Of a DNA stretch of 64,000 nucleotides, positions 2,052 through 63,177 are shown piece after piece (within the stretch, counting starts at the first letter, position 1; each line of letters begins with the position of its first letter). The DNA is from Candidatus Nomurabacteria bacterium. GTDB taxonomy: Bacteria > Patescibacteriota > Minisyncoccia > Phycocordibacterales > UBA9973. The DNA is taken from the NCBI GenBank assembly GCA_052035405.1, contig JBPOHQ010000008.1, positions 32,893 to 96,892 of the forward strand. The letters are read 5' to 3'. The translations under genes and the position numbers were made by a program. Below the pieces are notes generated by a model. It was not told the DNA's origin, made no database searches, and saw only the letters and a program-made list of their open reading frames with translations.

Positions 2052-2089
2052 GAGTTTATTATACCTAAAACAGACTAATTATCCAAAAC

Positions 2090-3952: not shown

Positions 3953-4036
3953 GAATTATATTCTAGGTTCCATACTTAAAACACAAACAATATAAATTAT
4001 AATATATTTACAGAATATAACCTAGGCACTAATTAC

Positions 4037-4684: not shown

Positions 4685-4687
4685 GTT

Positions 4688-5107: not shown

Positions 5108-5170
5108 ATTGTAAACGAATCTTAAACAAGACTGCTATACATATATTGTAATAGTAAATCAATAAAAAGA

Positions 5171-5887: not shown

Positions 5888-5912
5888 ATGTTTATTTTAA
5901 CACAGCTTCGTT

Positions 5913-6410: not shown

Positions 6411-6421
6411 ATTAATTTATC

Positions 6422-8746: not shown

Positions 8747-8837
8747 GTGTACACAGAAAACTTCTGTACTTTTCTCTGCTGTTTTCTTATTTGTTTATTA
8801 TAGCAAAACTAAATAAACTTACCTCTTTCTGAGTATC

Positions 8838-11243: not shown

Positions 11244-11291
11244 TTTTTATTTTTTCTGTCTTATTTTGGTACTGTATATTTTAACACTTCT

Positions 11292-13874: not shown

Positions 13875-13955
13875 GTTTATTTTTATCTAGAAAGATAGAT
13901 AGTATTATTATACTCTGTTTTTACTTTAAATAAAGTAAAAATGTTTAAAAACAGA

Positions 13956-25842: not shown

Positions 25843-25856
25843 GTTTCATGTGGAAC
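25843..25856. repeat. Solo intergenic copy of the 14-bp palindromic element (gtttcatgtggaac, identical to the 25491 copy)
   Basis: Exact 14/14 match to the copy at 25491. Confidence 0.6.
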
Positions 25857-41025: not shown

Positions 41026-41049
41026 CCAAAAAATTGTTATAATGAGTAT

Positions 41050-48875: not shown

Positions 48876-50045
48876 TTATTTAGCTTCAACTTCTTCACCC
48901 ATATCCACTTCGTCTCCGTCGGTTGATACAACATCTGCACCGTTACCTTTGATGTCAATTCTCCAACCAGTGAGCTTTGCAGCAAGACGGACATTTTGTC
49001 CTCCTTTTCCGATTGCGAGTGAAAGTTGATCTTCGGTAACTTCTACTACAGCTTTGTGTTCTTTTTCGTCTATTTCAATAGAAGTTACTTTTGCAGGAGA
49101 CAAAGAGTTTGAGACAAGCACTTTTGGATCATCTGACCAAGGAATAATGTCTATTTTTTCACCACCGAGTTCGTTTGTGATTGTGTTTACTCGTGTACCT
49201 TTTTGTCCGACACAAGATCCTACTGGATCAATGTGATCATCATTTGAAAATACTGCAATTTTACTTCGTGCACCAGCTTCACGGGCTATAGATTTTATTT
49301 CTACTACTCCATTTTCTATTTCTGGAGCTTCAACAGCGAAAAGTTTCTCAATAAATTTTGGATGAGTTCTTGAGAGTCTTAGGTTGATTCCTCTTGGTGT
49401 GTCTTCTACAGAATATAGGTAAGCACGCAATCTTTGTCCACGAGCAAAATGCTCTCCTGGAATCTGTTCTTCTACTGGGAGTATGCCTGTAGCACGATTA
49501 AAATCAATATATACATTACCTCTTTCTATTTTTTGTACTATACCAGAAATAACTTCTCCTTCTTTTGTGCCATATTCATCAATAATTGAGTTTCTCTCAG
49601 CTTCACGAATTCTTTGAATGATAACTTGTTTCGCTGTTTGTGCTGCAATACGTCCATAATCTTCTTTATCCTCAAGAGGAAAGATGATTTCATCGTTTAA
49701 TTCAGCACCTTTTTTGATTTTCTTAGCATCTTCAAGAAGTATATGGTGTTCAGGATTGAAACGTACTCGTTCATCTCCGTCTTCTTTAATAGAATATTCT
49801 TCGTCTTCATCTGCCATATCCATACGTGCGATACTTTCATCGACAACGATTTTAACCTGGAAAAAGTCAGTTTTTCCTGTTTCGAGGTCAAATTTTGCAC
49901 GAACTATTTGTCCTTTCTTTCCGTAATCTTTCTTGTATGCTGCGGCCATTGCTTGTTCGATGGCATCTAATATTTTTTCTTTTGGAATTTTTCTCTCTTC
50001 CTCTAGCTGTTCCAATGCTGATTTAAATGTTTTTATGTCTAACAT
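48876..50045 (-). CDS. nusA: Transcription termination/antitermination factor NusA
   Basis: N-terminal domain, S1, two KH (AIGKGGQNVRLAAKLTGWRIDIK). Confidence 0.9.
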   Translation of the reverse strand: MLDIKTFKSALEQLEEERKIPKEKILDAIEQAMAAAYKKDYGKKGQIVRAKFDLETGKTDFFQVKIVVDESIARMDMADEDEEYSIKEDGDERVRFNPEHHILLEDAKKIKKGAELNDEIIFPLEDKEDYGRIAAQTAKQVIIQRIREAERNSIIDEYGTKEGEVISGIVQKIERGNVYIDFNRATGILPVEEQIPGEHFARGQRLRAYLYSVEDTPRGINLRLSRTHPKFIEKLFAVEAPEIENGVVEIKSIAREAGARSKIAVFSNDDHIDPVGSCVGQKGTRVNTITNELGGEKIDIIPWSDDPKVLVSNSLSPAKVTSIEIDEKEHKAVVEVTEDQLSLAIGKGGQNVRLAAKLTGWRIDIKGNGADVVSTDGDEVDMGEEVEAK

Positions 50046-50213
50046 ATATTTAATTGTTATTTAATTTTTAATTTTTCGACTATTAAATTTTTTAATTCTC
50101 ATCATTTTTATCTGATTAAGAAAAAATAAAAGCCCCGGTTTGACAGGACTTGTATATTTCAAAGTATATCATATCTTATCCACAGGTCAAATTAACTTCC
50201 TCAAAAACATATT

Positions 50214-50549
50214 ATGTTGTATAATTCTCGTATGTCTAGGCAAAATATTATTTTGTTACTTTCACTACTAATCATTTTAGTGATTTTTGCCAGTTTTTAT
50301 TTTTATAAAAAAAGTAAAGATACGTATGTTCCTCCAGTTGTAGAACAAACTCCCTTAGAAAAGAAAGAAGCAGCTGAAAGAGAAGAATTAAAGAAAATAA
50401 ATACATCGGTAAAGCCAGTAGAGCCAAAACAAGAAGAAAAAATGCGTAACGAGCTTGAAGAGTTTCAGCCTGCTCCATCTGCCAATACTCTGAGTGAAGA
50501 AGATATGAGAAAGGCTCTTTTGGAACTTAATTCACCGTCTAATCCTTAG
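50214..50549 (+). CDS. Hypothetical membrane-anchored protein
   Basis: TM IILLLSLLIILVIFASFYFY. Confidence 0.4.
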   Translation: MLYNSRMSRQNIILLLSLLIILVIFASFYFYKKSKDTYVPPVVEQTPLEKKEAAEREELKKINTSVKPVEPKQEEKMRNELEEFQPAPSANTLSEEDMRKALLELNSPSNP

Positions 50550-50556
50550 TTAAAAA

Positions 50557-52131
50557 ATGCAAAAATATTTTAAAAAATTTTTAAGTTTGGGATTTATAAC
50601 AGTATTTGCTTTTATTGCTGTTTCTTATTCCATTCCAGCTAAGGGTAGTGTAACAGACAATGTATCTGGTTTTGCTTGGGAGGCAAATGACTGGGTGGAT
50701 AAAAATAGTAATGGAGTTGTAGATGTAAACGAAGATATGACTGAACCTGGTGGAACAGGATGGATATCTTTCAATTGTACATCTGATGTGTCTGGAACTT
50801 GTGGTTCTTCTGATTACGGTGTAACAATCAATCCAACTACAGGGGACATCACTGGTTATGCTTGGTCTTCAAACTATGGATGGCTTAAATTTGGTGGACA
50901 CTCTGGGTTCCCTACAGGTGGAGGTACGGTAGCAGAAAATGCAAAGATAAACTTTAGTTCAGGTACCGCTAATGCGAGACCAATGACAGGCTGGGCACGT
51001 TTTTGTGCTGTATATTCATCTGGTTGTGACGGAGCCCTAGCTCCTAGTTCAGTCCGTGGAGGCTGGGATGGCTGGGTGAGCTTTTCTGGAACAGCTCCTA
51101 CCTATGGTGTAACTTTAAATACTTCGGTAACCCCAAATGTTTTCAGTGGTTATGCTTGGGGAGGAAATGGTGGTTCTGGTAATATAGGTAAAAACGTTGT
51201 TGGTTGGATATCTTTCAATTGTGCAAGTGGTGGCAACTGTGGAACTTCAGACTATAAAGTCTCATATAATCCACCTGGAACACCCACTGTAGATATTCAA
51301 GCTACTCCTGTTGCTGGTGGTGCAACAACTCTTTCTTGGACAGGTTCAAACTTAGCTTCAGGTAACTCTTGTGTTGGTAGTCAAACTGGACCAAGCTCTA
51401 CGAGTTGGACTGGGTCTCACCCTTCTCCATCAGGGTCTTTCCCTCTATCAGGCTTAGTTGATGGAACCTATGTATTCACTATAACTTGTGCGGGTAATCC
51501 TTTTGGTTCTGCAGTGGACAATGTTACTGTGGTGGTGGGTGCTGGGCTTGATTTGTACGCAGACTCTCTTACAGTGTTTGCACCTAGCTATCAGACCACT
51601 CTTCACTGGGATTCTGTTCCTTCTGGTTACCCTTTAACAAACTGTACTCCTAGTAGTAATCCAGCTGTGGCTGCGTGGGATAATTTAGCACCTTGGAACA
51701 TACCTCCAGCCGGATCTTTTGTAGTAACAGTACCTCCAGCTTCGAATCCTACTCGTTTTACACTTACTTGTTATGATAACGGAACTCCTATTGTTAAATT
51801 TGTTGACTTAAATAGAGGTTCTCTCAGTGAAGTTGTAAATCTTTCAAGTACTGCTGTTGTGAATAATTTAACTACTCTTTCTTATTCTTTTACTAACATT
51901 GATGAAAATACTTGTGTAGCTACTTCTAATCCATTAGTAAAGAGTTGGGATGGTAGATTTGAGATACCTCCTCCATATTCTCTTTCAGATGTCGCAGTTC
52001 CAGCTGGAGTAGATACAACGTATACATTAACCTGTATTGGTACTCAGACAGGAAATTCTATATCAGATAGCATAACCTTAAATGAAAATAGTGGAAATAC
52101 TGGTACACCGCCACAATATATCGAAAATTAA
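50557..52131 (+). CDS. Secreted hypothetical protein with internal repeats (GYAW..N.GWISFNC.S...CG.SDY..)
   Basis: Signal peptide; the motif recurs about three times. Confidence 0.5.
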   Translation: MQKYFKKFLSLGFITVFAFIAVSYSIPAKGSVTDNVSGFAWEANDWVDKNSNGVVDVNEDMTEPGGTGWISFNCTSDVSGTCGSSDYGVTINPTTGDITGYAWSSNYGWLKFGGHSGFPTGGGTVAENAKINFSSGTANARPMTGWARFCAVYSSGCDGALAPSSVRGGWDGWVSFSGTAPTYGVTLNTSVTPNVFSGYAWGGNGGSGNIGKNVVGWISFNCASGGNCGTSDYKVSYNPPGTPTVDIQATPVAGGATTLSWTGSNLASGNSCVGSQTGPSSTSWTGSHPSPSGSFPLSGLVDGTYVFTITCAGNPFGSAVDNVTVVVGAGLDLYADSLTVFAPSYQTTLHWDSVPSGYPLTNCTPSSNPAVAAWDNLAPWNIPPAGSFVVTVPPASNPTRFTLTCYDNGTPIVKFVDLNRGSLSEVVNLSSTAVVNNLTTLSYSFTNIDENTCVATSNPLVKSWDGRFEIPPPYSLSDVAVPAGVDTTYTLTCIGTQTGNSISDSITLNENSGNTGTPPQYIEN

Positions 52132-52183
52132 AATTATAAGTAACATTAAAAATTAACATTATCAACACAATTACCAAATTATT

Positions 52184-55100
52184 ATGAATTTAAAAAATAA
52201 CAACACAATAAAAACTTTATTAAAATCATTTTTCTTCTTAGCTTTAATTGCAGTGTCTATAAATGCAGTTGCTGTTTGGCAAGCACCGACAGCTGTACCT
52301 ACTTCTGGAAACGTTGCAACTCCGATAAACTCAGGTACTGATGCCCAGATAAAAAATGGTGGCTTGACCGTAGGATTTTTCCAGTCCAATGGTGTTTCTG
52401 TGTTGTCTGGTAGTGTTGATATTGGTGGCACTTTGACTATCTCGAGTGGTACTCCCGGAGCAAACAAGGTTCTGACTTCAAATGCCTCAGGCGTTGCTAC
52501 ATGGCAAACGCCGGCAGTGACAGGAGCTCCACTTAGTGCTTCTTTTATAACTCAAACAGCAGATGCTAGTTTGACTAACGAACAAGCTCTTGCAACACTA
52601 GGTACAGGATTACTTAAAAATACGACAGGTACAGGGGTGTTATCTATTGCAACTCCTGGTACAGATTATTATAATTCAGCGTCTTTTAACCTCACAGGTC
52701 CAGTAACTTCAGTTGGACTAGCTACTGCAATCACAGATGGAGCTATTGTAACAGCAGATTTAGCAAACAGTGCAGTAACCATAGCTAAGATAAGTGCTAC
52801 AGGAACTCCTTCTGCTACTACATATCTACGAGGTGATGGTACTTGGTCAACTCCTGCTGGAGGCGGAGGTGGAGGAGCTCTCTCTGATGGAGATTATGGT
52901 GATATCACAGTGACTGGTTCTGGAGGAATTTGGAATATAGATCCAAGTACTGTGGGCACTACTGAAATTGTAGATAATGCGATAAATAACCCTAAAATAC
53001 TTGATAATGCAGTAACAAATTCAAAAATTATAAATGGTGCCGTGACTATAAGTAAAATAGGTACCACTTCAGGTACAGCTTCAGCTTCTACTTTCTTACG
53101 AGGTGACGGTACGTGGTCTGCTGGTCCTGTTGGTCCGCAAGGTATACAAGGACCAGCTGGAGCTACTGGTGCCACCGGAGCAACTGGAGCACAGGGTGCA
53201 CAAGGACCTCAAGGTCCCCAAGGCCCTCAGGGACCACAAGGTCCTGCAGGTACAGGAAGTGGTATAGTCGGTCCAGGTACAATAAATCGTCTAGCTAAAT
53301 TTACAGCAACAGATACAGTGGATGATTCTATTATTTGGGACAATGGTACAAATATTGGTATAAATACGGTTGCGGCATCAGACGCACTAAATAGACTTAC
53401 GGTCAGACAGAGTGTAAATGCTACTCCAGCGGTTTTCTCATCTTATGGTTTTGGATTAATGAACCAATCAAGTGTGGAATTGACTCTTGGTGCTGATGCA
53501 AGTAATGCTTATTTACAAAGTTGGAATACAAAGCCATTAGTTATAAATGGTCAAGGAAATAATGTGGGTATTGGCGTAAGTCCAACTACAAAACTGGACG
53601 TTAACGGGGTGGTGAAAGCAACTGGTTTTCAGATAGGTACTTCTTCAACAAGCGGATGGGTTCTTACTACTAATGCTTCTGGAGTTGGTACATGGGCAGC
53701 ATTACCAGCAGCAACACAAGGCAATCTTTCTGGAGACATAACATCTTCAGGTCTTGTAACTAGCTATAATAATACAGTACCTGTAACTAAGGGTGGTACA
53801 GGACTTACTTCAATTGCAGCTAGGTCAATTTGGGTTGCTAACACCGCAAACACAATTACAACTCTTAATCCTGGAGCAGGTCAATCTATACGTATAAACG
53901 CGGCAAACACTGGTTGGGAAGTCTATACTCCTGCTACTGGTAGTGGAAGTGGAACAGTTACTTCAGTCGGACTTACAACAAATACAACAGGTGCGGATAT
54001 TAGTGTTTCTGGTTCACCTATTACTACAAGTGGATCATTTACTCTAAGTATTCCTACGGCTTCTGGTTCAGCTCGTGGTGCTCTGTCTTCTGCTGACTGG
54101 ACGACTTTCAACAATAAGATGTCTAATCCTATGACGACTACAGGAGATGTTATTGTAGGTGGTTCTTCAGGGTCTCCTACAAGGTTGGCTGCTGGTACAG
54201 CAGGACTTGTCCTTAAATCAAACGGACCCGGAGTGGCTCCAAGCTGGCAAGCAGATGCGACAGGTGGTGCGGGAGGAATAACCACTGTTGGTGCTATTGA
54301 TACTCAAACTAAATCAACAAATGGATTAGTCATAAACGGAACAAGTATTTATGCTCAAACAGCAGATTCCTCAAATCCAGGACTTGTTTCTATTTCTGGA
54401 CAGACTTTTTCTGGAGATAAAGCGTTTAACGGTAAGGTTGGTATAAATATGACTACTCCTTCTCGTAACTTGGATGTAACAGGAACTGGTCGTTTTACGG
54501 CTGGGTTTATATCAGTTTCAGGAAACGCAAACAGTACAAGCACTACTACAGTCACAGGTACAAGCACACAATTTACTACTCAATTAAGAATAGGGGATCT
54601 TATTACTATCAGCGGACAAACAAGAAGAGTCACAAACATATCAAACAACACACAACTCACAGTTAACTCTGCTTTTTCTGGAGCAAGCGGTGCTATAAGT
54701 GGATTTGCTCCAATTCTTATGGTTAGATCTTTGAGTGGTAATGAATTAATAGTTGACGCTGGTGGAGACGTAGGAATAGGATTAGGAAATGGTATTCCAA
54801 GTGCAAAGCTTGATGTTCGAGCAACAACTTCAAACCCTGCAGGTATAAATCTTTCACCATGGAGCACTTCAGCTGGAAATACTTCTGAATTAAGATTCTC
54901 TGAACTTACTGCAAATGGTATTAACTTTATAGGATTTAAATCTCCAGACTCTATCTCTACAGATACTACATATGTATGGCCGAGTGCAGTACCTACCGCA
55001 GGTCAAGTCTTAACAGCTGGTGCACCAGTTTCTGGGATTTCTACCTTATCATGGGCTGCTGGAGGAGGAGGTGGTGGTGCTATAAGTGCACTTACTGCGG

Positions 55101-55993
55101 CTACTGTTGCAAATACTATAAACAACTCTGCATGGATGCAAGAATGGCAATGGAATACACTTGGATCTGGAACAGGACTTAAACTTTCTTCTGCATCAAC
55201 AGCCGCACCTGGAGCCACACAAAGACTTTTTGAAATATCAGTTACAGGTACAGGCTCAGGAGGAAGTACTTCAACTGCATCACATGTAACAAACAGTAAG
55301 ACAAACAGTGGAGGCACAAATGTTGCAGGTTACTTCTCTGCATCAGGTGCTACTACCGCTAACTACGCTTTATATGTTGGAGCTGGAGTTATAGGAAATT
55401 TAAATGGAACTGCTGCAGCACCTAGCTATACATTTAGCGGTAGTGCAACTACCGGTATGTGGTCTTCAGCTGTAAACACACTAAACTTCGCAACAGCTGG
55501 TACAAACAGACTAACTATTGATTCTACTGGAGGGGTTACTGCTACAGGTCTTGCAGGTACTGGAGAAAGAAGAGTCTGTGTAGACAGTACGGGTAAATTT
55601 AAAGTATGTGCTTCGGAAATTAATAAGATTATATCTTTTGCACTTAAATATAATGGTGGTACAAGCTTTACCGCAGAGAACACTTCAGTCTTATGGACTG
55701 ATGATCCTACAGATGTCAGTGAAAACGTACTAGTTGTAAGTGCTACAAATCCTAGTACAGGACGTTATTTACTAAATGTCACTTTTGATGGATGGAGCAT
55801 GGATTCTGACGAGATGGTTTCTGCGACGTATGTAGCTCAATCAAACGGTCTACACAAAATGTCTTTGAAAGATGAGGATGGTAATAATAACTTAGAATTT
55901 CAAATATCAAATGACAACGTGCCATCAAATATGGATGTTGGAGATGAATTGTACTTTATTATGCAATGGCCTACTGTTGGTATAAATAACTAG
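52184..55993 (+). CDS. Giant (1269 aa) surface or fibre-like protein with a collagen-like Gly-X-Y tract and Thr/Ser/Gly-rich repeats
   Basis: N-terminal hydrophobic anchor; [45 protein letters not shown]; recurring [17 protein letters not shown] / [17 protein letters not shown] blocks. Confidence 0.6.
53123..53262 (+). repeat. Collagen-like (G-X-Y)n coding tract within the giant protein
   Basis: About 46 consecutive Gly-X-Y triplets. Confidence 0.8.
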
Positions 55994-56016
55994 TTTTTAT
56001 TTTCTTGGTACAAAAT

Positions 56017-56063
56017 TAACAAAAAAATCCTCTTAAGTTTTATCTTTTGAGGATTTTTTTGTT
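56017..56063 (+). terminator. Hairpin (aaatcctc ... gaggattt) followed by a T-run downstream of the giant protein gene
   Basis: Read directly; large loop, moderate confidence. Confidence 0.45.
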
Positions 56064-56068
56064 ATAAT
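56063..56068 (+). promoter_or_regulatory. -10 hexamer TATAAT 6 nt upstream of the pilB ATG (leaderless arrangement)
   Basis: ttgttataat-atatct-ATG. Confidence 0.4.
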
Positions 56069-56074
56069 ATATCT

Positions 56075-57820
56075 ATGCAAATTAATGAAGATCAACTCAA
56101 AAGATTTATTTTAGATGCTGGGCTGATTAAACGAGCAGATCTTGATGCTATTGAGAAAAAAGCAATAGAACAAAAACAAAAACTAGGGGACATGCTTCTA
56201 ACTGAAGGAAAAATATCTGAAGTTGATCTAAAGAGAATGGAAGCGTTTGTTTTAGGTATTCCTTTCATAAACCTTATAAATGAAAAAATAGAATTAGACA
56301 TATTGTCTTTGATCCCAGAACCCCTTGCACACAAATACAATATTATTGCCTACAAAAAATCTGATAAGGGGTTAGAGGTTGCGATGCTTGATGTTGATGA
56401 TTTACCAGTTATTGATTTTATTAAAAAGAAGTCTGGTTATAAAATATTACCAAGACTTACCGATACTGCATCTATCAAAAGTGCATTGTTGCAGTATAAA
56501 AAAAGTCTTCAGGCGGAATTTGATACTATTATTCAAAAAGAAGTTGGACCACTTTCGGTTGCAAAAGAAGAAGGTGAAAAATCAGAAGCAGAACTTAAAG
56601 AGATGGCTGAAGACTTGCCTGTCGTAAAAATAGTTGATTCACTCATCTTTCACGGAATTTTACAGGGAGCATCTGATATACATATCGAGCCAGGAGAAAA
56701 TGATTTAACAGTACGATATAGAATAGACGGTATTTTGCATGATGCAATGATACTTGATAAAAATGCTGGTAGTGGTATTACTGCTCGTATTAAAGTGTTG
56801 TCTAATCTAAAACTTGACGAAAAAAGATTACCTCAAGACGGTAGATTTAAGATTGAGCAAAATGGAGACAAGGTGTCTTTTCGTGTCTCAACACTTCCAA
56901 CATTTTTTGGAGAGAAAACTGTTATCAGAATCTTGCGTGAAAATGCACATGGTTTTTCTCTTGAGGGATTAGGTTTTCATGGTGAAGGACTAGAAAGAAT
57001 TTATGAATCATTGAAACAAAAAACAGGTATGGTGCTCGCGACCGGTCCGACTGGTTCTGGAAAGACTACGACTCTCTATACTATGCTGGATATTTTGAAT
57101 AAACCAGAAGTAAATATATCTACAGTAGAAGACCCTATTGAGTATCAGATGCCTAGAGTTAACCAAACTCAAGTTAAATCAGAGATAGGTTTATCTTTTG
57201 CCAACGGGCTTCGCTCACTTCTTCGTCAAGATCCTGATATTGTGATGGTGGGGGAGATTCGAGATGGAGAGACAGCAAGTATTGCGGTCAACGCTTCTCT
57301 TACTGGTCACTTGGTGCTTTCTACTATACACACAAACTCCGCAGCTGGAGCCATCCCAAGACTTGTAGATATGGGAGTATTACCTTTTCTTATTGTTTCT
57401 ACAGTGAAGACTATTATTGCTCAGCGTCTAGTAAGAAGACTTACTCCTAGTAAGGAAAAATATTTCTTGTCAGAGGCAGAACTAGAAAGTTTAAGTAAAA
57501 TTGTTGATTTAGATAGAATGTTGGTATTCCTTAAAAAAGAAAAGATTGTTGGCGAGAAAGATGACTGGAAAACAATTCCTTTCTATAAGGCTGTAAAAAG
57601 TGCTGATTCTGAATCTGGTTATGCGAGTCGTGTTGGAATTCATGAAGTTCTAAAAGTAAGCAACACTATCCGCGAGATGATTATCAAAGGTGCTTCTCAA
57701 GATGAAATAGAAAAACAAGCAAAAGAAGAGGGAATGATGACAATGATAGAAGATGGTGTTTTTCAGGCCGTGTTAGGACTTACTACGATAGAAGAAGTAT
57801 TTCGTGTTGTCTCTGAGTAA
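56075..57820 (+). CDS. pilB: Type IV pilus assembly ATPase PilB (GspE family)
   Basis: GspE N-terminal domain; Walker A ATGPTGSGKTTTLY; Asp box; His box VLSTIHTNSAAGAIPRL. Confidence 0.9.
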   Translation: MQINEDQLKRFILDAGLIKRADLDAIEKKAIEQKQKLGDMLLTEGKISEVDLKRMEAFVLGIPFINLINEKIELDILSLIPEPLAHKYNIIAYKKSDKGLEVAMLDVDDLPVIDFIKKKSGYKILPRLTDTASIKSALLQYKKSLQAEFDTIIQKEVGPLSVAKEEGEKSEAELKEMAEDLPVVKIVDSLIFHGILQGASDIHIEPGENDLTVRYRIDGILHDAMILDKNAGSGITARIKVLSNLKLDEKRLPQDGRFKIEQNGDKVSFRVSTLPTFFGEKTVIRILRENAHGFSLEGLGFHGEGLERIYESLKQKTGMVLATGPTGSGKTTTLYTMLDILNKPEVNISTVEDPIEYQMPRVNQTQVKSEIGLSFANGLRSLLRQDPDIVMVGEIRDGETASIAVNASLTGHLVLSTIHTNSAAGAIPRLVDMGVLPFLIVSTVKTIIAQRLVRRLTPSKEKYFLSEAELESLSKIVDLDRMLVFLKKEKIVGEKDDWKTIPFYKAVKSADSESGYASRVGIHEVLKVSNTIREMIIKGASQDEIEKQAKEEGMMTMIEDGVFQAVLGLTTIEEVFRVVSE

Positions 57821-57823
57821 TAT

Positions 57824-59041
57824 ATGCTCTTTTTTTATAAAGCAAAATTAAAGAATGGAGAAATTATAGAAGCAACAATGGAAGGTGATGATAAATTTTC
57901 TGTTTCTAGAGAATTAAAATCCAGAGGTTATGCCCCTGTCACTATAATTGAGAAAAAAGAAAGTAGTTTTGACCCACTCGCTGTATTTAAATCACTCTTT
58001 GGTGGTGTTAAAAACAGTGAATTAATTATTGTTACTAAAAATTTAAGTGGTATGATCAAGGCGGGATTGTCACTTTCTCGTGCCTTATCTGTGCTTGAAA
58101 AACAAACAAAAAACGATGCTCTTCAAAAGATTTTAAATGCTGTTGTTTTAGAGATAAACTCAGGAGGCACACTTTCTTCTGGTTTGAATAAATTTCCAAA
58201 AACTTTCTCTAAGTTGTTCGTATCTATGACACGTGCAGGGGAAGAGTCTGGTAATTTAGCAAATTCACTTTCTGAAGTTGGTTTGATTTTAGAAAAATCA
58301 AATAACCTTACAAAAAAAGTTAAAGGTGCATTGATATATCCTGGAGTAATTATCACTGCGATGATTGTCGTGGGTGTGCTAATGTTTGCATTTATTGTGC
58401 CTACTCTAGCTAAAACTTTCAAAGAGTTGAATGTAGCATTACCGAAATCAACTCAAGCCGTAATTGCTCTAGGAGATTTTTTTTCAAATAATTTAATTTT
58501 AGCATTTGTTATTTTAATTTTAGCCGGTTTTGGACTTTTTTCTTTTTTTAGGGCTAAATTTATGGCTAAATATATAGACTTTGTAATCATACGTTTACCC
58601 ATGCTTGGAACAATGGTAAAAGAGATTAATACTGCTCGTACTGCTCGTACGATGGCATCGCTGCTTGTTTCTGGTGTGTCTATCACTCGCGCAATTGAAA
58701 TTACAGAAGATGTTGTTCAAAACATTTATTATAAAAAAATTTTAGTTAAAGCTAAAGAAGAGATAGAGAAAGGTTCTCCTTTTTCTCAGGCGTTTAACGA
58801 AAGTAATGGACTTTATCCTGTTATGATGACTGAGATGGTTCAGGTAGGAGAAGAGACGGGTAAATTATCAGACATGCTTTTGCAAATTGCTATCTTTTAC
58901 GAAGAGGAAGTTGAAAATAAAACAAAAAATCTTTCGACTATTATTGAGCCAGTTCTGATGGTTTTTGTTGGAGGTGGTGTTGGTTTTTTTGCCATGTCGA
59001 TGATTACACCATTGTATTCTATCCTGGATAATATAAACTAG
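57824..59041 (+). CDS. pilC: Type IV pilus platform protein PilC (GspF family)
   Basis: Two GspF repeats and three TM segments. Confidence 0.85.
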   Translation: MLFFYKAKLKNGEIIEATMEGDDKFSVSRELKSRGYAPVTIIEKKESSFDPLAVFKSLFGGVKNSELIIVTKNLSGMIKAGLSLSRALSVLEKQTKNDALQKILNAVVLEINSGGTLSSGLNKFPKTFSKLFVSMTRAGEESGNLANSLSEVGLILEKSNNLTKKVKGALIYPGVIITAMIVVGVLMFAFIVPTLAKTFKELNVALPKSTQAVIALGDFFSNNLILAFVILILAGFGLFSFFRAKFMAKYIDFVIIRLPMLGTMVKEINTARTARTMASLLVSGVSITRAIEITEDVVQNIYYKKILVKAKEEIEKGSPFSQAFNESNGLYPVMMTEMVQVGEETGKLSDMLLQIAIFYEEEVENKTKNLSTIIEPVLMVFVGGGVGFFAMSMITPLYSILDNIN

Positions 59042-59045
59042 TATT

Positions 59046-60014
59046 ATGAATAAATCCAAAAAAAAAGGTATCTCCGCAATAGAAGTAATAACAACTGTTT
59101 CTATTGTTGTTTTGATTACCGTGGTTGTTTTACCTCAGTTTTCAAAGATAAAAGAGAGACAGTCTCTGAATAACTCAGCCTCAACTGTCATAACAGCTCT
59201 TAATAAGGCAAGCTCACAGAGTCTTGCATCTGTAGACTCTTACGTTTATGGAGTTCGTTTTAATGCGAATTCTATTGTTGTCTTTAGAGGTACTACATAT
59301 TCAGCCTCTACGTTAAATGAAACGTTAGATATACCTAGTCCTTCTAGTATTACAGATGTTACTTTAAATGGTGTTAGTGCAATTCCAGGTGAAATGTATT
59401 TCAATAGGCTTACCAACATACCTTCAAAAACTGGTACAGTCACCATAACTACAGGTTCTTCTCAAAAAATAATTACAATTGGTGCTACAGGTATCGTAAG
59501 TGTCAGTGGAGCTTCTGGTAGTTCAAATTACAATTTAAATGTAACTGTCTCTAGCGGAGGTTCAGTATCGTCAAGTCCAGGGACTATCAACTGTAATCCA
59601 ACTTGTTCAAATAGCCTGAGTTCTGGAACGGGAGTAATTTTAACCGCTACTCCAAGCGGAGGGTATACCTTTTCTGGATGGTCCGGAGATTGTACTGGTA
59701 CAGGGACTTGTAGCCTAAGTATGAATTCAAACAAAAGTACAACAGCAACTTTTGTTCCTTCTGTTACTAACTATGATTTAAATGTCACGGTTTTAAGTGA
59801 AGGGACTGTAACATCGGATATTGGTTCAATTAGTTGTGACCCTACTTGTACAGAGAGTTTTTCTTCCGGAGACATTGTGACTTTAACTGCCAGCCCAAGT
59901 AAGTTTCATGTATTTTCTGAATGGGAAGGATCTTGTAAGGGTCAAGAAACAAATACCTGTGAACTTACGATGGACTCTACAAAAAATGTAACTGCAATTT
60001 TTGCTCCCGAGTAA
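59046..60014 (+). CDS. Large type IV pilin-like protein (class III prepilin signal G|ISAIEV)
   Basis: MNKSKKKGISAIEVITTVSIVVLITVVVL. Confidence 0.65.
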   Translation: MNKSKKKGISAIEVITTVSIVVLITVVVLPQFSKIKERQSLNNSASTVITALNKASSQSLASVDSYVYGVRFNANSIVVFRGTTYSASTLNETLDIPSPSSITDVTLNGVSAIPGEMYFNRLTNIPSKTGTVTITTGSSQKIITIGATGIVSVSGASGSSNYNLNVTVSSGGSVSSSPGTINCNPTCSNSLSSGTGVILTATPSGGYTFSGWSGDCTGTGTCSLSMNSNKSTTATFVPSVTNYDLNVTVLSEGTVTSDIGSISCDPTCTESFSSGDIVTLTASPSKFHVFSEWEGSCKGQETNTCELTMDSTKNVTAIFAPE

Positions 60015-60070
60015 TCTTTGACTATAAATTATTTTCCTTCAATCTTAAAGATGTTATAATTAGTTAGTAA

Positions 60071-60574
60071 ATGAATTTTCTGCTAAAAACAAAAAATATT
60101 TCAACTACTAAAAAACAAAAAGGTTTTTTAGTAGTTGAAATATTGGTTGCAGCTTCTATTATTACTCTTACTATTTTATCTGCTACGGTTGTTGCCCAAA
60201 AGTCTATTTACGTATCCCGTCAGGCACTTAATGCTACACAAGCAGCATACCTTTTAGAAGAAGGAGCAGAAGCTGTGCGAATTTACAGAGATAATACCTG
60301 GACTAATATTTCTGGTATGACAGTAGGTACTAATTATTACCCGCTTTTTTCTGGTGGTACATGGACTTTTCCAACATCTGCGTCAACTATAGGTATATTT
60401 ACTCGCAAGGTTGTCATCTCAAATGTAAATCGTGACAATTCAACAAAAGATATTGTGACAAGTGGAGGTACCGTAGATGCTGGTACAAAACTTGTTACTG
60501 TCACAGTGAGTTGGAACGAGGGCACTAATGTTATTACGAAGACACTGCCTTTTTATATAACTAATATATTTTAA
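60071..60574 (+). CDS. Type IV pilin/pseudopilin-like protein
   Basis: KGFLVVEILVAASIITLTILSA prepilin motif. Confidence 0.6.
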   Translation: MNFLLKTKNISTTKKQKGFLVVEILVAASIITLTILSATVVAQKSIYVSRQALNATQAAYLLEEGAEAVRIYRDNTWTNISGMTVGTNYYPLFSGGTWTFPTSASTIGIFTRKVVISNVNRDNSTKDIVTSGGTVDAGTKLVTVTVSWNEGTNVITKTLPFYITNIF

Positions 60575-60587
60575 TAATAAAAAGATA

Positions 60588-61085
60588 ATGAAACTTTTTC
60601 ATAAAAAAACATCCGGATACACCATGATAGAGCTTCTCTTTTATATCTCTATTTTTGCTGTAGTTTTTTTAATTATGATTAACTCCATCATGGTGATGAC
60701 TCGATCTTTCAGAGAAACTTCAGTTAATACAGACATAATTCAGAGTTCTAATATAATGGATAGAATTTCTCGTGAGATAAGAAAAGCAGAGTCTATACAT
60801 ACAATCAGCACCAATAGTCTTAAATTAAATACAACAAATGACGCAGGTACAGCGACGACAGTTCAGTTCTCGCTCTCCGGTTCTAATATTGTTTTTTACG
60901 ATAATGATGTTTTGCTTGGTAATTTAAATTCACCCAACGTATCGGTGACCGCACTAACTTTTACTCAGATAACAACAGCTAAAGGGGCTGCTGTAAAAGT
61001 ATTTATGACTGTTGTGTCTAATAATTATGGATCTACCCGTGCGGAGAATTTTTATGACACTATAGTATTAAGAGGTAATTATTAG
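60588..61085 (+). CDS. Type IV pilin/pseudopilin-like protein
   Basis: SGYTMIELLFYISIFAVVFLIM prepilin motif. Confidence 0.6.
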   Translation: MKLFHKKTSGYTMIELLFYISIFAVVFLIMINSIMVMTRSFRETSVNTDIIQSSNIMDRISREIRKAESIHTISTNSLKLNTTNDAGTATTVQFSLSGSNIVFYDNDVLLGNLNSPNVSVTALTFTQITTAKGAAVKVFMTVVSNNYGSTRAENFYDTIVLRGNY

Positions 61086-61098
61086 TATTTATATAAAA

Positions 61099-62388
61099 AT
61101 GATTTTTAATAAAAAATATAATTTCAGAAATAAAAAGCAAGGAGGTCAAGTAATGATACTTTCTGTTGTATTTTTTGTTTCTATTACACTCACTGTCATT
61201 GCTGGTCTAGTATCTCCTGCGGTAAGAGAGTTTAAAATATCTACTGATGCTATTCGTTCAAGGCAAAGTCTGTATTTGTCAGAGTCTGGAGCAGAAGATG
61301 CATATTATCGCTTAAAAAATCTTATGACTATTGGTTCCTCTGAGGTTATTACTCTAAATGGAAATACAGTTACGACAACGATCGATAGTTCTGTTCAAAA
61401 TGAAAATAATATTATTTCGCTTGCAGATGTTTCTTCTCGTCAACGCAAAACACAGTTAAAGCTCGTTTCTACTGATGGTGTTTCTTTTCAGTATGGAGTA
61501 CAGATTGGAGATGGGGGTATTCAGTTGTTTGGCACATCAAAGCTTGGGGGAAGTACATTTACCAACGGAAACATACAAGGACTTTCAAGTGCTTCACGCA
61601 ATATCATAGAAGGAGACGCTATTTCAGCTGGAGGTTCAATGCTTTATATAACGACCGATACTGTAGGTAAGGCTAATTTTATTTCAAACTCAACTATTGG
61701 TACTGACGCATACTACAATAGTATTATTAATACCACAGCTGGTACGTATCATCCTGGTTCACCAGATGTAGCTGATCTACCAATGCCAATCCTTGACCCT
61801 GTTATTGATGACTGGGAGGCAGATGCAGTAGCTGGAGGTACTGTAACTACTCCTTGTCCCGCTGGAAGATATACAATAAACAGTAATACTACTCTTGGAC
61901 CATTAAAAATAAATTGTAATTTTTTGTATATTGAAAGTAACGCTGTGCTTACTTTAACAGGGCCTGTATGGGTAACAGGTGACATTGTGATTAGGCAAAA
62001 CGCCTCTGTTATATCAAATGGGCCTACTGGTTTTGCTTTAATAGCGGACAAAACAAGTGATCACACTAATTCAAGTAGAGTTACAATAAATACAACACTC
62101 AGTACTAATTCAAATCCTACATACCATGTGGTACTTGTTTCTAGAAATTCTAGCACCTCTCAGGCTGCTATTGATGTTACTAATTCCAATAGTAGTTATA
62201 CACTTCCTTATATCTTATATGCACCAGATGGTAAGGCAGCTTTTAACTCAAGTATGAATATTAAAGTTATATCGGTGAAAGGTTTAAACGTATTAAATAA
62301 TGCATTTTTAGAATTTACTACGGGACCAATAGATCCATATTTTCCAACCTTTGGTTGGAGTTCCTCAATCTGGAAAGAAATTCAATGA
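61099..62388 (+). CDS. Pilus-associated hypothetical protein with an N-terminal TM (PilX-like position)
   Basis: VMILSVVFFVSITLTVIAGL; follows the pilin genes. Confidence 0.4.
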   Translation: MIFNKKYNFRNKKQGGQVMILSVVFFVSITLTVIAGLVSPAVREFKISTDAIRSRQSLYLSESGAEDAYYRLKNLMTIGSSEVITLNGNTVTTTIDSSVQNENNIISLADVSSRQRKTQLKLVSTDGVSFQYGVQIGDGGIQLFGTSKLGGSTFTNGNIQGLSSASRNIIEGDAISAGGSMLYITTDTVGKANFISNSTIGTDAYYNSIINTTAGTYHPGSPDVADLPMPILDPVIDDWEADAVAGGTVTTPCPAGRYTINSNTTLGPLKINCNFLYIESNAVLTLTGPVWVTGDIVIRQNASVISNGPTGFALIADKTSDHTNSSRVTINTTLSTNSNPTYHVVLVSRNSSTSQAAIDVTNSNSSYTLPYILYAPDGKAAFNSSMNIKVISVKGLNVLNNAFLEFTTGPIDPYFPTFGWSSSIWKEIQ

Positions 62389-62415
62389 CACTTTTCTTGT
62401 GTGGTATAATGACGT

Positions 62416-63177
62416 ATGTCTAAAAATATTGTAATCGGAAATTGGAAAATGCACCCTTTAACCCTAAAAGAAGGGGAGAAATTATTTGCAGATATTGCAA
62501 AACAAGTGCAAGCGTTTAAAAAAACAGATATCGTTATTTGCCCTCCTTTTTTATATATAGAAAAATTAAAAAAAATATCTAAAAAAATATATCTTGGATC
62601 TCAAAATGGATACCATGGGGATGTTGGTGCTTCCACAGGAGAGATCTCTTTTGGAATGCTAAGTAACTTAGGTGTTAGATATGTAATCTTGGGTCACTCT
62701 GAGAGAAGAACCCTAGGAGAATCAAATTTTGATATAAACAGAAAAATAAAATCAGCACTTTCTTTTAAAATTACTCCAATTTTGTGTGTTGGAGAGAGTG
62801 TTAGAGATGAAAACCATGAGTATTTAAATTTTATTAAAACTCAAGTAGAAGAGTGTTTGCTAGGTATTACAAAGATTTCTTTATCCAAAATTGTAATAGC
62901 ATATGAGCCTGTGTGGGCGATAGGTAAAGACGCTGCTCGTGTGGCCACCCCAGGGGAGTTTTTAGAAATCAGTATTTTTATTAAAAAGATACTTATTGAT
63001 AAGTTCGGCAAATTGGCAACACAGGATCTTCGCATTATTTACGGTGGGTCAGTTCACCCAGAAAATGCAGCATCTTTTCTAATAGAGGGCAAAGCCCAAG
63101 GCTTTCTGCCGGGGCGAGATTCTCTGAATGCAAAGAAGTTTTTAGAAATAATTAAAATTACAGAAAATACAAAATAG
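62416..63177 (+). CDS. tpiA: Triosephosphate isomerase
   Basis: GNWKMH, ILGHSERR, AYEPVWAIG. Confidence 0.9.
   Translation: MSKNIVIGNWKMHPLTLKEGEKLFADIAKQVQAFKKTDIVICPPFLYIEKLKKISKKIYLGSQNGYHGDVGASTGEISFGMLSNLGVRYVILGHSERRTLGESNFDINRKIKSALSFKITPILCVGESVRDENHEYLNFIKTQVEECLLGITKISLSKIVIAYEPVWAIGKDAARVATPGEFLEISIFIKKILIDKFGKLATQDLRIIYGGSVHPENAASFLIEGKAQGFLPGRDSLNAKKFLEIIKITENTK

What the first reader, a model, noticed from the sequence alone, without database searches (positions are those of the whole stretch)
50557..62388. Type IV pilus locus preceded by a giant collagen-like fibre protein and a repeat-rich secreted protein
pilB, pilC and three or four prepilin-signal proteins (G|xxxxE) are preceded by a 524-aa secreted protein with three GYAW..GWISFNC..CG.SDY repeats. 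They are also preceded by a 1269-aa protein with a roughly 46-triplet collagen Gly-X-Y tract and phage-tail-fibre-like T/S/G repeats. The layout suggests a pilus-tip or co-expressed adhesin for host or surface attachment. No pilD, pilT or pilMNO genes are in the window.
Basis: partly seen in the sequence, partly recalled or inferred. Interest (0 to 1): 0.55.

Follow-up and report, generated by a model that had tools for sequence, protein, structure and literature searches.

The report
Swappable tail-fibre-like adhesin beside pilus genes
An ultra-small (Patescibacteria) bacterium encodes, next to its type IV pilus genes, a secreted fibre built like a phage tail fibre; its outer half has been swapped wholesale between near-identical strains, which makes it a candidate for the part that decides what the cell sticks to.

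Summary
The genes are real and at the stated coordinates. PilB, PilC, three canonical prepilins and a fourth pilin-like protein without Glu5 are confirmed. The collagen tract is 15 Gly-X-Y triplets (45 residues), not about 46.

The window is chromosomal DNA of a Nomurabacteria/Paceibacteria-type bacterium, not a prophage. The order NusA | ~105-aa membrane protein | "GYAW" protein | 1-2 fibre genes | pilB-pilC-pilins recurs across related genomes.

The 1269-aa protein belongs to a family of Sec-exported, tail-fibre-like proteins. They share a mature N-terminus (xWxxP[TS]..P...N...P[IV]N.....Q.K.G) and have very variable distal parts.

In a strain about 91% identical, residues 1-598 are 97% identical. 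The last ~675 residues (window 53965-56012) are unrelated and end in a Peptidase_S74 chaperone domain. That cassette lies inside a block that is otherwise 100% identical, pilB and pilC included.

The window's ~125-aa tip domain has no Pfam or PDB match. It is rare, always C-terminal, and also occurs on two type IV pilin-like proteins.

A strong conserved terminator hairpin and a -10 box separate the fibre gene from pilB, so co-transcription is doubtful. Best reading: a polymorphic surface adhesin fibre working beside the pilus, not a pilin.

The parts
50214..50549 (+). 111-aa small bitopic membrane protein (one TM helix, then a charged Glu/Lys/Pro-rich tail). It is the first gene of the fibre module.
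   Evidence: ORF; no significant family. A 101-114-aa counterpart sits in the same position in L001, L005, L007, L008, L009 and L014, and one gene after the GYAW gene in L010. dN/dS against L001 is 0.12.
50557..52131 (+). 524-aa 'GYAW-family' secreted protein: N-terminal signal/TM helix (aa 5-23), W/G-rich beta-barrel-like domain (aa ~30-240), three Ig-like domains, and a conserved C-terminal P.Y.EN tail.
52184..55993 (+). 1269-aa tail-fibre-like, collagen-containing secreted fibre protein.
   Evidence: ORF; composition and motifs. Family relatives: P0121-P0123, and L001, L005, L007-L011. The N-half is under purifying selection, dN/dS 0.06.
52184..52423 (+). Sec-type signal peptide (aa 1-30, ..NAVA|VW) plus the conserved mature N-terminus xWxxP[TS]..P...N...P[IV]N.....Q.K.G.L. 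This is the proposed docking end.
   Evidence: Alignment of 15 family members gives invariant P47, N49, Q55, K57, G59 and near-invariant A30, W32, P35, P39, N43. The segment is shared by fibres of 192 to 1772 aa. Cleavage itself is inferred, not tested.
53123..53257 (+). Collagen-like tract, 15 uninterrupted Gly-X-Y triplets (aa 314-358).
   Evidence: Regex count; Pfam Collagen E 3.8e-6, 27.0 bits against cut-off 27.2; matches to collagen chains in PDB.
53965..56012 (+). Replaceable distal cassette: codons ~595-1269 of the fibre gene plus 19 nt after the stop codon.
   Evidence: There is no DNA similarity to L001/L003 here. The flanks are 100% identical (53657-53964 and 56313-~59300). The protein is 97% identical over aa 1-598 and unrelated after that. 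The left breakpoint falls at the start of the widespread VTSVGL...[11 protein letters not shown] module.
55616..55990 (+). ~125-aa C-terminal tip domain (ends ..WPTVGINN), the proposed receptor-binding head.
   Evidence: Exhaustive phmmer finds 13 clusters at E<1e-10 among 1.84 billion representatives; in the 13 strongest matches (E<=4e-11) the match ends at the C-terminus. Carriers are fibres with the same N-motif, collagen-stalked proteins, and two pilin-like proteins. No Pfam or PDB sequence match. L008 carries a 488-aa fibre with the same tip.
56017..56064 (+). Terminator-like hairpin (A-run, 16-bp stem, T-run) between the fibre gene and pilB.
   Evidence: Inverted repeat I5. dG -23.5 kcal/mol, z -7.1, 0 of 200 shuffles fold as well. 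Equivalent hairpins with different stem sequences occur in L001, L007 and L009, z -5.9 to -6.7.
56060..56068 (+). Extended -10-like box TGTTATAAT, 6 nt before the pilB start codon (predicted own promoter, near-leaderless mRNA).
   Evidence: Four matches in the window against 1.4 expected. Three of them lie 6-10 nt upstream of a start codon: pilB, the 167-aa pilin (60052-60060) and the methylase gene (41035-41043). TATAAT is also present before pilB in L001, L007 and L009.
56075..57820 (+). PilB-type extension ATPase (MshEN N-domain plus T2SSE).
   Evidence: Pfam T2SSE 5e-121 and MshEN 1.6e-9; TIGR02538 1e-153. The protein is 100% identical in L001.
57824..59041 (+). PilC/GspF platform protein.
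   Evidence: Pfam T2SSF 2.3e-55 (two copies); GspF 4e-89. 100% identical in L001.
59046..60014 (+). 322-aa prepilin (G|ISAIE) with two C-terminal divergent InlB B-repeat (Ig-like) domains.
   Evidence: Flg_new_2 E 1.6e-21 (2 copies); ComGE/PilA weak hits; phrog_3433 pilin; leader found. 88.5% aa identity to L001.
60071..60574 (+). 167-aa minor prepilin (G|FLVVE).
   Evidence: weak PilV/ComGE hits.
60588..61085 (+). 165-aa minor prepilin (G|YTMIE).
   Evidence: N_methyl E 8e-5; ComGF 6e-6.
61099..62388 (+). 429-aa protein with a pilin-like hydrophobic N-terminus lacking Glu5 and a large C-terminal part. It is analogous to PilX/GspK-type non-canonical minor pilins.
   Evidence: Sequence; no family. 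A counterpart of ~431 aa is present in L001-L004. The analogy to Saccharibacteria PilX1/PilX2 rests on PMC12206443.

Best explanation
The locus holds two adjacent modules on the chromosome of a Nomurabacteria/Paceibacteria-type (Patescibacteria) bacterium.

Module 1 (50214-55993) encodes three proteins. The first is a small membrane protein. The second is a secreted beta-barrel-plus-Ig-like protein of the 'GYAW family'. The third is a Sec-exported fibre made of phage-tail-fibre-type sequence modules and a short collagen triple-helix segment, so it is presumably trimeric.

The fibre's conserved mature N-terminus is proposed to fix it to the cell envelope, most likely through the co-conserved GYAW protein. 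The variable C-terminal half would project outward and end in a receptor-binding tip. That distal half behaves as an exchangeable cassette. It has been replaced by homologous recombination between conserved arms (fibre shaft on the left, terminator/pilB on the right), much as phages swap receptor-binding proteins. The exchange would change what the cell adheres to, such as a host cell or a surface.

Module 2 (56075-62388) is a type IV filament machine (PilB, PilC, four pilin-like proteins), probably transcribed from its own promoters. The two modules are proposed to cooperate in attachment: pilus for reach, fibre for close, specific binding. The fibre is not itself a pilin.

Shown here: gene content, family membership of PilB/PilC/pilins, conserved neighbourhood, the N-terminal motif, the cassette swap, the rarity and carriers of the tip domain, and the hairpin.

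Inferred: signal-peptide cleavage, trimer state, docking partner, adhesin function and cooperation with the pilus.
For: 1. Chromosomal, non-phage context, conserved over family-level divergence.
2. The fibre family is defined by a shared signal peptide plus N-motif on proteins of 192-1772 aa with unrelated distal parts.
3. Trimeric tail-fibre nature. The allelic L001 protein and relatives carry Peptidase_S74 (E 7e-15 to 3e-18). The window protein has 15 collagen triplets. Short modules match annotated phage tail fibres. An L010 relative hits the PilV Shufflon_N constant region (E 4e-14).
4. Cassette swap. The protein is 97% identical over aa 1-598 and unrelated afterwards. The breakpoints at 53964/53965 and ~56013 are sharp and lie inside a 100%-identical block that includes pilB and pilC.
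5. All genes are under purifying selection, dN/dS 0.02-0.14, so the fibre gene is functional and varies by replacement.
6. The tip domain is rare; in the 13 strongest matches it ends at the C-terminus. It occurs on same-family fibres, directly after collagen stalks, and on two pilin-like proteins (G|FGLVEV, G|VSLIEV).
7. Fibre and GYAW genes lie within 8 kb of each other in every fibre-seeded locus with enough flanking sequence (L013-L016, L019), and in L005 and L007-L011.
8. In Saccharibacteria, type IV pili and separate adhesins are both needed for epibiotic growth (PMC10633639, PMC12206443).
Against: - There is no experimental or expression data.
Trimer state and head fold are therefore inferred.
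- The fibre-pilus linkage could partly reflect inherited synteny. The whole RNase Y...NusA | ... | pilB...tpiA region is collinear in these genomes. In L008, L011 and L015, fibre and GYAW genes occur with no pilB within ~10 kb.
- The predicted terminator and promoter between the fibre gene and pilB argue against strict co-expression.
- No cell-wall anchor (LPXTG, S-layer homology) is present, so how the fibre stays on the cell is unknown.
Confidence: 0.55

Rival explanations
1. The fibre is physically part of the pilus. It would be carried at the tip or along the shaft by binding to the minor pilins or to the 429-aa PilX-like protein. Pilus extension would present it and retraction would pull the cell to its target.
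For: Adjacency to pilB/pilC/pilins in most loci. The same tip domain occurs on two type IV pilin-like proteins. A family member matches the constant region of PilV, the variable tip adhesin of the R64 thin pilus.
Against: The fibre has a Sec-type signal with a conserved AxA site and no G|xxxxE signal, so it cannot be polymerised as a pilin. A terminator and a separate promoter are predicted before pilB. Fibre plus GYAW genes occur without pilB nearby in L008, L011 and L015. The fibre's most constant partner is the GYAW protein, not a pilin.
Confidence: 0.15
2. The fibre forms a protective or identity-giving surface coat, a hair-like nap like BclA on Bacillus spores. Its polymorphism would be driven by escape from phages, predators or grazers rather than by choice of a host.
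For: Collagen tract plus globular C-terminal domain, as in BclA-type proteins. Wholesale allele replacement is also typical of phage-exposed surface structures. No receptor is known.
Against: The modules are those of receptor-binding proteins: S74-chaperoned tips, tail-fibre motifs, and a tip shared with pilins. The gene sits in an attachment-machinery locus. Only 1-2 fibre genes are present and there is no sign of an abundant lattice-forming protein.
Confidence: 0.15
3. The giant gene is a remnant of a prophage or tailocin (a domesticated or decaying tail-fibre gene) with no link to the pilus.
For: Peptidase_S74 in the allelic form; PHROG 'tail fiber' hit; short module matches to phage tail fibres and IMG/VR contigs.
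Against: There are no phage genes in the 64 kb or in any related locus. The PHROG hit covers only the collagen tract. An N-terminal secretion signal is present, which phage fibres assembled in the cytoplasm lack. The position is the same across genomes only ~40-60% identical in neighbouring proteins. dN/dS is 0.06. The GenBank phage and IMG/VR searches found only short-module matches, covering no more than 7-8% of the query.
Confidence: 0.05
4. PilB, PilC and the pseudopilins act as a type II-secretion-like or Com-like piston. The GYAW protein and the fibre would be its cargo, pushed through the wall or S-layer.
For: No PilT is present in the window. PilB scores almost equally as GspE (1.5e-152) and PilB (1.1e-153). 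The pilins give weak ComG/GspI hits. The cargo-like secreted proteins are encoded next door.
Against: The organism is expected to be monoderm, so no outer membrane has to be crossed (established knowledge of Patescibacteria, not tested here). Type IV pili are seen and needed for motility and host binding in cultivated relatives. Absence of PilT from 64 kb says little about the whole genome.
Confidence: 0.07

Closest known systems
Phage tail fibres and tailspikes with a C-terminal intramolecular chaperone (Peptidase_S74; e.g. K1F endosialidase, T5 L-shaped fibre pb1)
   Same: Long modular fibre rich in T/S/G/A with an optional collagen tract. The allelic form in L001 and the relatives in L007-L009 and L011 end in a Peptidase_S74 domain. 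Short shaft modules are shared with annotated phage tail fibres. Specificity changes by swapping the distal part at conserved module boundaries.
   Different: It is encoded on the chromosome among housekeeping and pilus genes, with no virion genes nearby. It has a Sec signal peptide and a family-specific N-terminus instead of a baseplate-attachment domain. The window allele lacks S74 and ends in a different, undescribed tip domain.
Bacterial collagen-like surface proteins (BclA of the Bacillus exosporium; Scl1/Scl2 of Streptococcus pyogenes)
   Same: Secreted protein with a Gly-X-Y triple-helix segment and a globular C-terminal domain. In some carriers the tip domain follows collagen directly (P0365, P0368). 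NCBIfam gives weak Scl hits over the collagen tract.
   Different: Collagen makes up only 45 of 1269 residues. There is no LPXTG anchor and no BclA N-terminal exosporium-targeting motif. The hits are far below the family cut-offs (24 bits against 325). The shaft is tail-fibre-like.
PilV shufflon adhesin of the R64/IncI1 thin (type IVb) pilus
   Same: An attachment protein linked to a type IV pilus, with a constant N-part and alternative C-terminal parts that set partner specificity. A family member (L010, 316 aa) matches Pfam Shufflon_N positions 189-278, E 4e-14.
   Different: PilV is a true prepilin and switches by site-specific inversion (Rci) within one genome. Here there is no prepilin signal, no inverted repeats and no adjacent recombinase. 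Variation is between strains, by allele replacement. The window protein itself does not hit Shufflon_N.
Type IV pili of Saccharibacteria (T4P-1/T4P-2, with PilX-type large minor pilins)
   Same: The same phylum-level group and the same core machine (PilB, PilC, several pilins). It includes a large pilin-like protein without a canonical PilD site, comparable to the 429-aa protein. In Saccharibacteria, pili and separate adhesins are both needed for host binding (PMC12206443, PMC10633639).
   Different: The four papers opened and the four text searches made here mention no fibre or GYAW module for those systems. This locus lacks pilD, pilT and pilMNO within the window.
Ig-like/FN3 stalk adhesins (e.g. 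Lap repeats-in-toxin adhesin extender domains, invasin)
   Different: Fold-level similarity only (6-18% identity). The N-terminal W/G-rich barrel has no family and only a generic likeness to 8-stranded meander barrels.

Membership tests
Type IV filament system (type IV pilus / T2SS / Com) | Extension ATPase of the PilB/GspE family | tested here: met
   Pfam T2SSE 5e-121 and MshEN 1.6e-9; TIGR02538 1.1e-153 (below the equivalog cut-off, so the subtype stays open).
Type IV filament system (type IV pilus / T2SS / Com) | Polytopic platform protein PilC/GspF | tested here: met
   T2SSF 2.3e-55, two repeats; GspF 4e-89.
Type IV filament system (type IV pilus / T2SS / Com) | Prepilins with a class III signal (Gly-1, Glu+5, hydrophobic helix) | tested here: met
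   Three proteins (322, 167 and 165 aa) have it. A fourth (429 aa) lacks Glu5.
Type IV filament system (type IV pilus / T2SS / Com) | Prepilin peptidase PilD | tested here: not met
   No GxGDxK motif or candidate ORF in the 64-kb window. The rest of the genome cannot be examined.
Type IV filament system (type IV pilus / T2SS / Com) | Retraction ATPase PilT and alignment proteins PilM/N/O (type IVa pili) | tested here: not met
   phmmer with PilB finds only PilB in the six-frame translation. No PilM/N/O family was found among the 20 ORFs scanned; the other window ORFs were read by eye only. This applies to the window only.
Collagen-like proteins (Pfam PF01391; BclA/Scl type) | Uninterrupted Gly-X-Y repeats | tested here: met
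   15 triplets, aa 314-358. The Pfam score of 27.0 is just under the 27.2 cut-off.
Collagen-like proteins (Pfam PF01391; BclA/Scl type) | LPXTG cell-wall anchor (Scl) or full-length match to SclA/SclB | tested here: not met
   The C-terminus is ..WPTVGINN. NF038329/NF038330 score 23-24 bits against cut-offs of 325-400.
Phage tail fibre / tailspike with intramolecular chaperone | C-terminal Peptidase_S74 domain | tested here: not met
   Absent from the window protein. Present in the allelic L001 protein (aa 1179-1230, E 6.9e-15) and in the L008, L009 and L011 relatives.
Phage tail fibre / tailspike with intramolecular chaperone | Encoded within a phage, prophage or tailocin gene set | tested here: not met
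   Housekeeping and pilus genes flank it in the window and in 11 related loci. The GenBank phage and IMG/VR searches found only short-module matches, covering no more than 7-8% of the query.
Type IV pilin / PilV shufflon adhesin | Class III (prepilin) signal on the fibre or on the 524-aa protein | tested here: not met
   Both have Sec-like signals; the fibre has a conserved A-x-A|xW site.
Type IV pilin / PilV shufflon adhesin | Shufflon_N constant region; invertible segments with inverted repeats and an Rci-type recombinase | tested here: not met
   No Shufflon_N hit for the window protein, only for the L010 relative. No long inverted repeats in or around the gene. The only tyrosine recombinase in the window (XerC/D-like, 30376-31311) is 20 kb away.
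Diversity-generating retroelement target | Template/variable repeat pair and a nearby reverse transcriptase | tested here: not met
   No direct repeat longer than 38 nt in 50000-62500. No reverse-transcriptase-like ORF was recognised in the window translations (by inspection only).
GYAW-family protein (provisional family, defined here) | Signal peptide, then ..DN.SG[YWF]AW.., invariant G/W columns forming one barrel domain, followed by 1-3 Ig-like domains | tested here: met
   Alignments A1 and A2: invariant G38, W41, G100, W109, G145, W146, W201, W217 and others. 540 homologues. Models.

The most novel reading that the evidence does not exclude
Paceibacteria-type Patescibacteria may carry a dedicated, phage-like host-range module next to their pilus genes. 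It would consist of a small membrane protein, a barrel-plus-Ig 'socket' protein (GYAW family) and one or two trimeric fibres that plug into it through a conserved N-terminal peptide. The fibre tips (S74-chaperoned, the new WPxVxN tip domain, and others) would be traded horizontally between strains and even with pilins. An episymbiont could then switch partner specificity in one recombination event, as phages do with receptor-binding proteins.
Probability: 0.3. Interest if true: 0.75.

Novelty: new variant of a known kind. Interest (0 to 1): 0.6.

Why it matters
Most Patescibacteria are uncultivated and are thought to live attached to other microbes. What decides their partner choice is an open question. 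So far only pili and a few unnamed adhesins in Saccharibacteria have been tied to attachment.

This locus offers a concrete and widespread candidate for a specificity determinant in the much larger Paceibacteria group. It is a tail-fibre-like surface protein with a constant base and an exchangeable tip. One clear natural allele swap is seen between near-identical strains.

It also defines three undescribed sequence elements that can be searched for and tested: the GYAW barrel family, the fibre N-terminal motif, and a rare tip domain shared with pilins. If fibre alleles track partner organisms in metagenomes, host range could be predicted from sequence.

Tried and rejected
1. The full-length homology search with the 1269-aa protein was swamped by collagen words. 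It missed even the 97%-identical relative, which was recovered through the neighbouring gene.
2. PHROGs, PDB and NCBIfam hits to the fibre cover only the collagen tract. They are not evidence for a phage origin.
3. Prophage idea rejected: there are no phage genes in the window or in any related locus.
4. Shufflon, DGR or silent-cassette mechanisms within this genome: no suitable repeats were found.
5. Donor of the distal cassette. No close match in 5.8 billion proteins, GenBank phages or IMG/VR. Only the 60-aa VTSVGL...DWTTFNNK module recurs.
6. Tip domain: no Pfam or PDB sequence match, even with a 15-sequence profile.
The narrower alignment returned only 9 loci, so the taxonomic spread is undersampled.
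9. Gene-wide positive selection: not seen, dN/dS 0.02-0.14.
10. The consensus terminator scan missed the fibre-pilB hairpin because its stem is AT-rich. It was found with the repeat finder and by folding.

Full report
WHAT IS THERE

The region 50214-62388 holds nine same-strand ORFs with gaps of 3-81 nt. Upstream lie NusA, inorganic pyrophosphatase, trigger factor, ClpP and RNase Y on the other strand. Triose-phosphate isomerase lies downstream. G+C is about 35% throughout and 41% in the Gly/Ala/Thr-rich fibre gene. The closest named relatives of the proteins are from Candidatus Nomurabacteria and Paceibacterota/Patescibacteria metagenome genomes. The window also carries a monoderm-type T4SS cluster typical of this group (PMC12102498). 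No phage gene was recognised.

THE PILUS GENES

PilB (T2SSE E 5e-121, MshEN, TIGR02538 E 1e-153) and PilC (T2SSF, two copies) are unambiguous.

Three downstream proteins have canonical prepilin leaders: G|ISAIE, G|FLVVE and G|YTMIE. One reaches the N_methyl threshold. The first carries two divergent InlB B-repeat domains (E 1.6e-21).

The 429-aa protein has a pilin-like hydrophobic N-terminus without Glu5. It resembles the large non-canonical PilX proteins of Saccharibacteria.

The window has no PilT paralogue and no prepilin-peptidase motif. No PilM/N/O family was found among the 20 ORFs scanned; the other window ORFs were read by eye only. The subtype (T4aP, Com-like or T2SS-like) cannot be fixed, because PilB scores equally as GspE.

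THE 524-aa PROTEIN

It has 3x G[FY]AW, 3x GW[IV]SF and 2x C..CG.SDY. It has 540 homologues at E <= 1e-3, all hypothetical Patescibacteria proteins. These share a signal peptide, then ..DN.SG[YW]AW.., and a 210-residue domain with invariant Gly and Trp columns, followed by one to three Ig-like domains. No Pfam or NCBIfam family covers the N-domain.

So the 'three repeats' are strands of one barrel on an Ig-like stalk. The barrel's function is unknown. I treat it as a binding or docking domain, and that is inference.

THE 1269-aa PROTEIN

The Gly-X-Y run is 15 triplets (aa 314-358), not 46. The rest is T/G/S/A-rich and is built of motifs that recur in tail-fibre-like proteins..[12 protein letters not shown]....YLRGDGTW....GNNVGIG...KLDV....VTSVGL...[11 protein letters not shown]...

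The full-length database search was swamped by collagen matches. Relatives were therefore found through the neighbouring gene.

Every relative starts with a Sec-type signal peptide ending A-x-A. The conserved mature N-terminus then follows: xWxxP[TS]..P...N...P[IV]N.....Q.K.G.L. After that the proteins differ in length (192-1772 aa) and content. Several end in a Peptidase_S74 intramolecular-chaperone domain (E 1e-12 to 3e-18). One matches the PilV Shufflon_N constant region (E 4e-14). Collagen tracts of 15-23 triplets are optional. S74 domains and collagen both imply trimers. That is established knowledge of those families and was not tested here.

THE KEY COMPARATIVE RESULT

Contigs L001-L004 are about 91% identical to the window and have the same gene order.

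- The fibre proteins are 97% identical over residues 1-598 and unrelated afterwards.
- At DNA level the break is sharp at 53964/53965. Similarity resumes at ~56013, 19 nt after the stop codon.
- The 300 bp to the left of the cassette is 100% identical. To the right, after a 95%-identical 300-nt stretch (56013-56312), about 3 kb is 100% identical. This includes all of pilB and pilC, which have dS = 0. Other genes nearby have dS of 0.09-1.4.

So a 2.05-kb cassette encoding the distal half of the fibre was replaced very recently, inside an otherwise identical block.

The left breakpoint coincides with the start of the most widely shared module of the protein (aa 585-660). This module is a plausible recombination anchor.

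The L001 allele ends in Peptidase_S74 (aa 1179-1230, E 7e-15). The window allele ends in a different ~125-aa domain.

All genes, including the fibre N-half (dN/dS 0.06) and the GYAW gene (0.11), are under purifying selection.

THE TIP DOMAIN

The distal half has no close relative among 5.8 billion proteins, GenBank phages or IMG/VR.

An exhaustive phmmer search of 1.84 billion representatives with aa 1100-1269 found 20 proteins, 13 of them at E < 1e-10. In the 13 strongest matches (E <= 4e-11) the match ends at the C-terminus. The carriers fall into three groups:
- short fibres with the same N-motif (P0362, P0363, P0373, P0367; also the 488-aa protein of L008);
- proteins in which the domain follows a collagen stalk directly (P0365, P0368);
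- two type IV pilin-like proteins (P0370 G|FGLVEV, P0371 G|VSLIEV).

P0371 lies on a 1.26-Mb contig whose neighbouring genes include a cytochrome-c family protein, an RCC1-repeat protein and FHA-domain proteins.

A 15-sequence profile finds nothing in PDB or Pfam. A distal, always-terminal domain that is mounted on either fibres or pilins is what one expects of a receptor-binding head.

NEIGHBOURHOOD

- NusA | ~105-aa TM protein | GYAW | fibre(s) | pilB | pilC occurs in L007 (fibre 1772 aa, S74) and in L009 (409-aa S74 fibre plus 1244-aa collagen fibre).
- L005 has two tandem fibres that share only the N-terminal ~110 aa with the window protein (70-77% identity).
- L008 has a 488-aa fibre with the window-type tip plus a 1577-aa S74 fibre, and no pilB within 10 kb.
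- In more distant Paceibacteria (L010-L012) the GYAW gene still lies 0-2 genes before pilB, or, in L011, near a 192-aa mini-fibre.

A scan of species-representative genomes with the N-motif returned 9 loci, in Nomurabacteria, Yonathbacteria, Wildermuthbacteria and other Patescibacteria. Every locus with enough flanking sequence has a GYAW gene within 8 kb. Three have pilB, and two of those also pilC.

The fibre-GYAW pairing is therefore the tightest association. The link to pilB is frequent but not universal, and it may partly reflect inherited synteny of the whole region.

TRANSCRIPTION UNITS

Between the fibre stop codon and pilB lies a hairpin with A- and T-runs (56017-56064; dG -23.5 kcal/mol, z -7.1). 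Equivalent hairpins with different stem sequences are present in L001, L007 and L009 (z -5.9 to -6.7).

Its 3' arm overlaps a TGTTATAAT box that ends 6 nt before the pilB ATG. The same 9-mer precedes the 167-aa pilin gene.

I therefore predict three units: 111-GYAW-fibre; pilB-pilC-322; and 167-165-429. This argues against the 'co-expressed operon' reading. It does not argue against a functional link.

INTERPRETATION

Best supported (confidence 0.55): a Sec-exported, presumably trimeric, tail-fibre-like surface adhesin. Its conserved N-terminus fixes it to the envelope, probably through the GYAW protein. Its exchangeable distal half sets binding specificity. It acts beside the type IV pilus but is not part of it.

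Rivals:
- display on the pilus (0.15);
- a protective, variable surface coat (0.15);
- cargo of a secretion-type pseudopilus (0.07);
- a phage remnant (0.05).

COMPARISON WITH KNOWN SYSTEMS

The fibre works like a phage receptor-binding protein, and like the PilV shufflon adhesin in having a constant base and variable tips. It fails their membership tests. It has no phage context, the window allele has no S74 domain, it has no prepilin signal, and there is no inversion system. It shares a collagen tract with BclA/Scl proteins but not their anchors.

Four full-text searches and the four Patescibacteria papers opened mention no such fibre module. Literature coverage is limited to the held library.

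VERDICT

I rate it a new variant of a known kind. Interest is 0.6, mainly for three reasons: the clean natural cassette swap, the conserved fibre-GYAW-pilus neighbourhood in a large uncultivated lineage, and a new tip domain shared between fibres and pilins.

Noticed in passing
window 25490-25590, 25843-25856 and 26605-26740: A 14-nt motif GT[TG]CC[AG]C[AG]TGAAAC occurs 11 times (0.28 expected), on both strands. The copies are often 27 nt apart. Nine copies lie inside or next to two unrelated housekeeping genes (a YraN/UPF0102-like gene, 25293-25766 minus strand, and a CCA-adding/HD enzyme gene, 26372-27964); the last of these, at 27730, is about 1 kb from the cluster. One is intergenic, and one lies at 10261, inside the T4SS cluster. 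Where the motif lies within those two genes it is read in frame as VPHET/VPRET/VSHET peptide repeats. tRNA genes lie between them. It resembles in-frame palindromic repeat elements such as those of Rickettsia.
   Followed up: partly
window 1065-14894 (minus strand): A type IV secretion-like cluster: a VirB4-like ATPase (2090-3952), a PrgI-family protein (4688-5107, Pfam E 3.5e-8), a 774-aa polytopic VirB6-like protein, an 801-aa secreted protein with thrombospondin type 3 repeats, and further large secreted proteins. It matches the monoderm-type T4SS described for Patescibacteria in PMC12102498.
   Followed up: partly
window 41050-42871 (match covers 41863-42864): A cytosine methylase plus R.HinP1I-like restriction enzyme pair. 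It is 99.4% identical over the 1 kb shared with L001, while the surroundings are about 91% identical. L001 has about 1.3 kb of extra genes right after it. This suggests a recently moved restriction-modification cassette.
   Followed up: no
window 60090-60149: A 22-bp perfect hairpin (dG -28 kcal/mol) lies within the codons for the leader peptide and cleavage site of the 167-aa prepilin. The leader differs in L001, where only a weaker hairpin forms.
   Followed up: partly
window 52108-52128; L007, L010, L011 and L012 gene ends: GYAW-family proteins end in a conserved P.[YF].E[NQI]-COOH tail (invariant E523, near-invariant P519). The same tail ends the unrelated large secreted proteins encoded just upstream in L010-L012. 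It may be a shared sorting or docking signal.
   Followed up: no
window 59300-62388 compared with L001: The pilin genes diverge much more than their neighbours (dS 0.5-1.4, 87-88% aa identity), whereas pilB and pilC are identical. The switch from 100% identity to about 85% falls about 250 bp into the 322-aa pilin gene, which marks another recombination boundary.
   Followed up: partly
L025 (ENA ERZ25039505 contig_8936) 8001-9734: A 577-aa type IV pilin-like protein carries the same C-terminal tip domain. It lies on a 1.26-Mb contig next to genes for a cytochrome-c family protein, an RCC1-repeat protein and FHA-domain proteins. That gene content suggests the tip domain may also occur outside Patescibacteria, but the organism was not identified.
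   Followed up: partly
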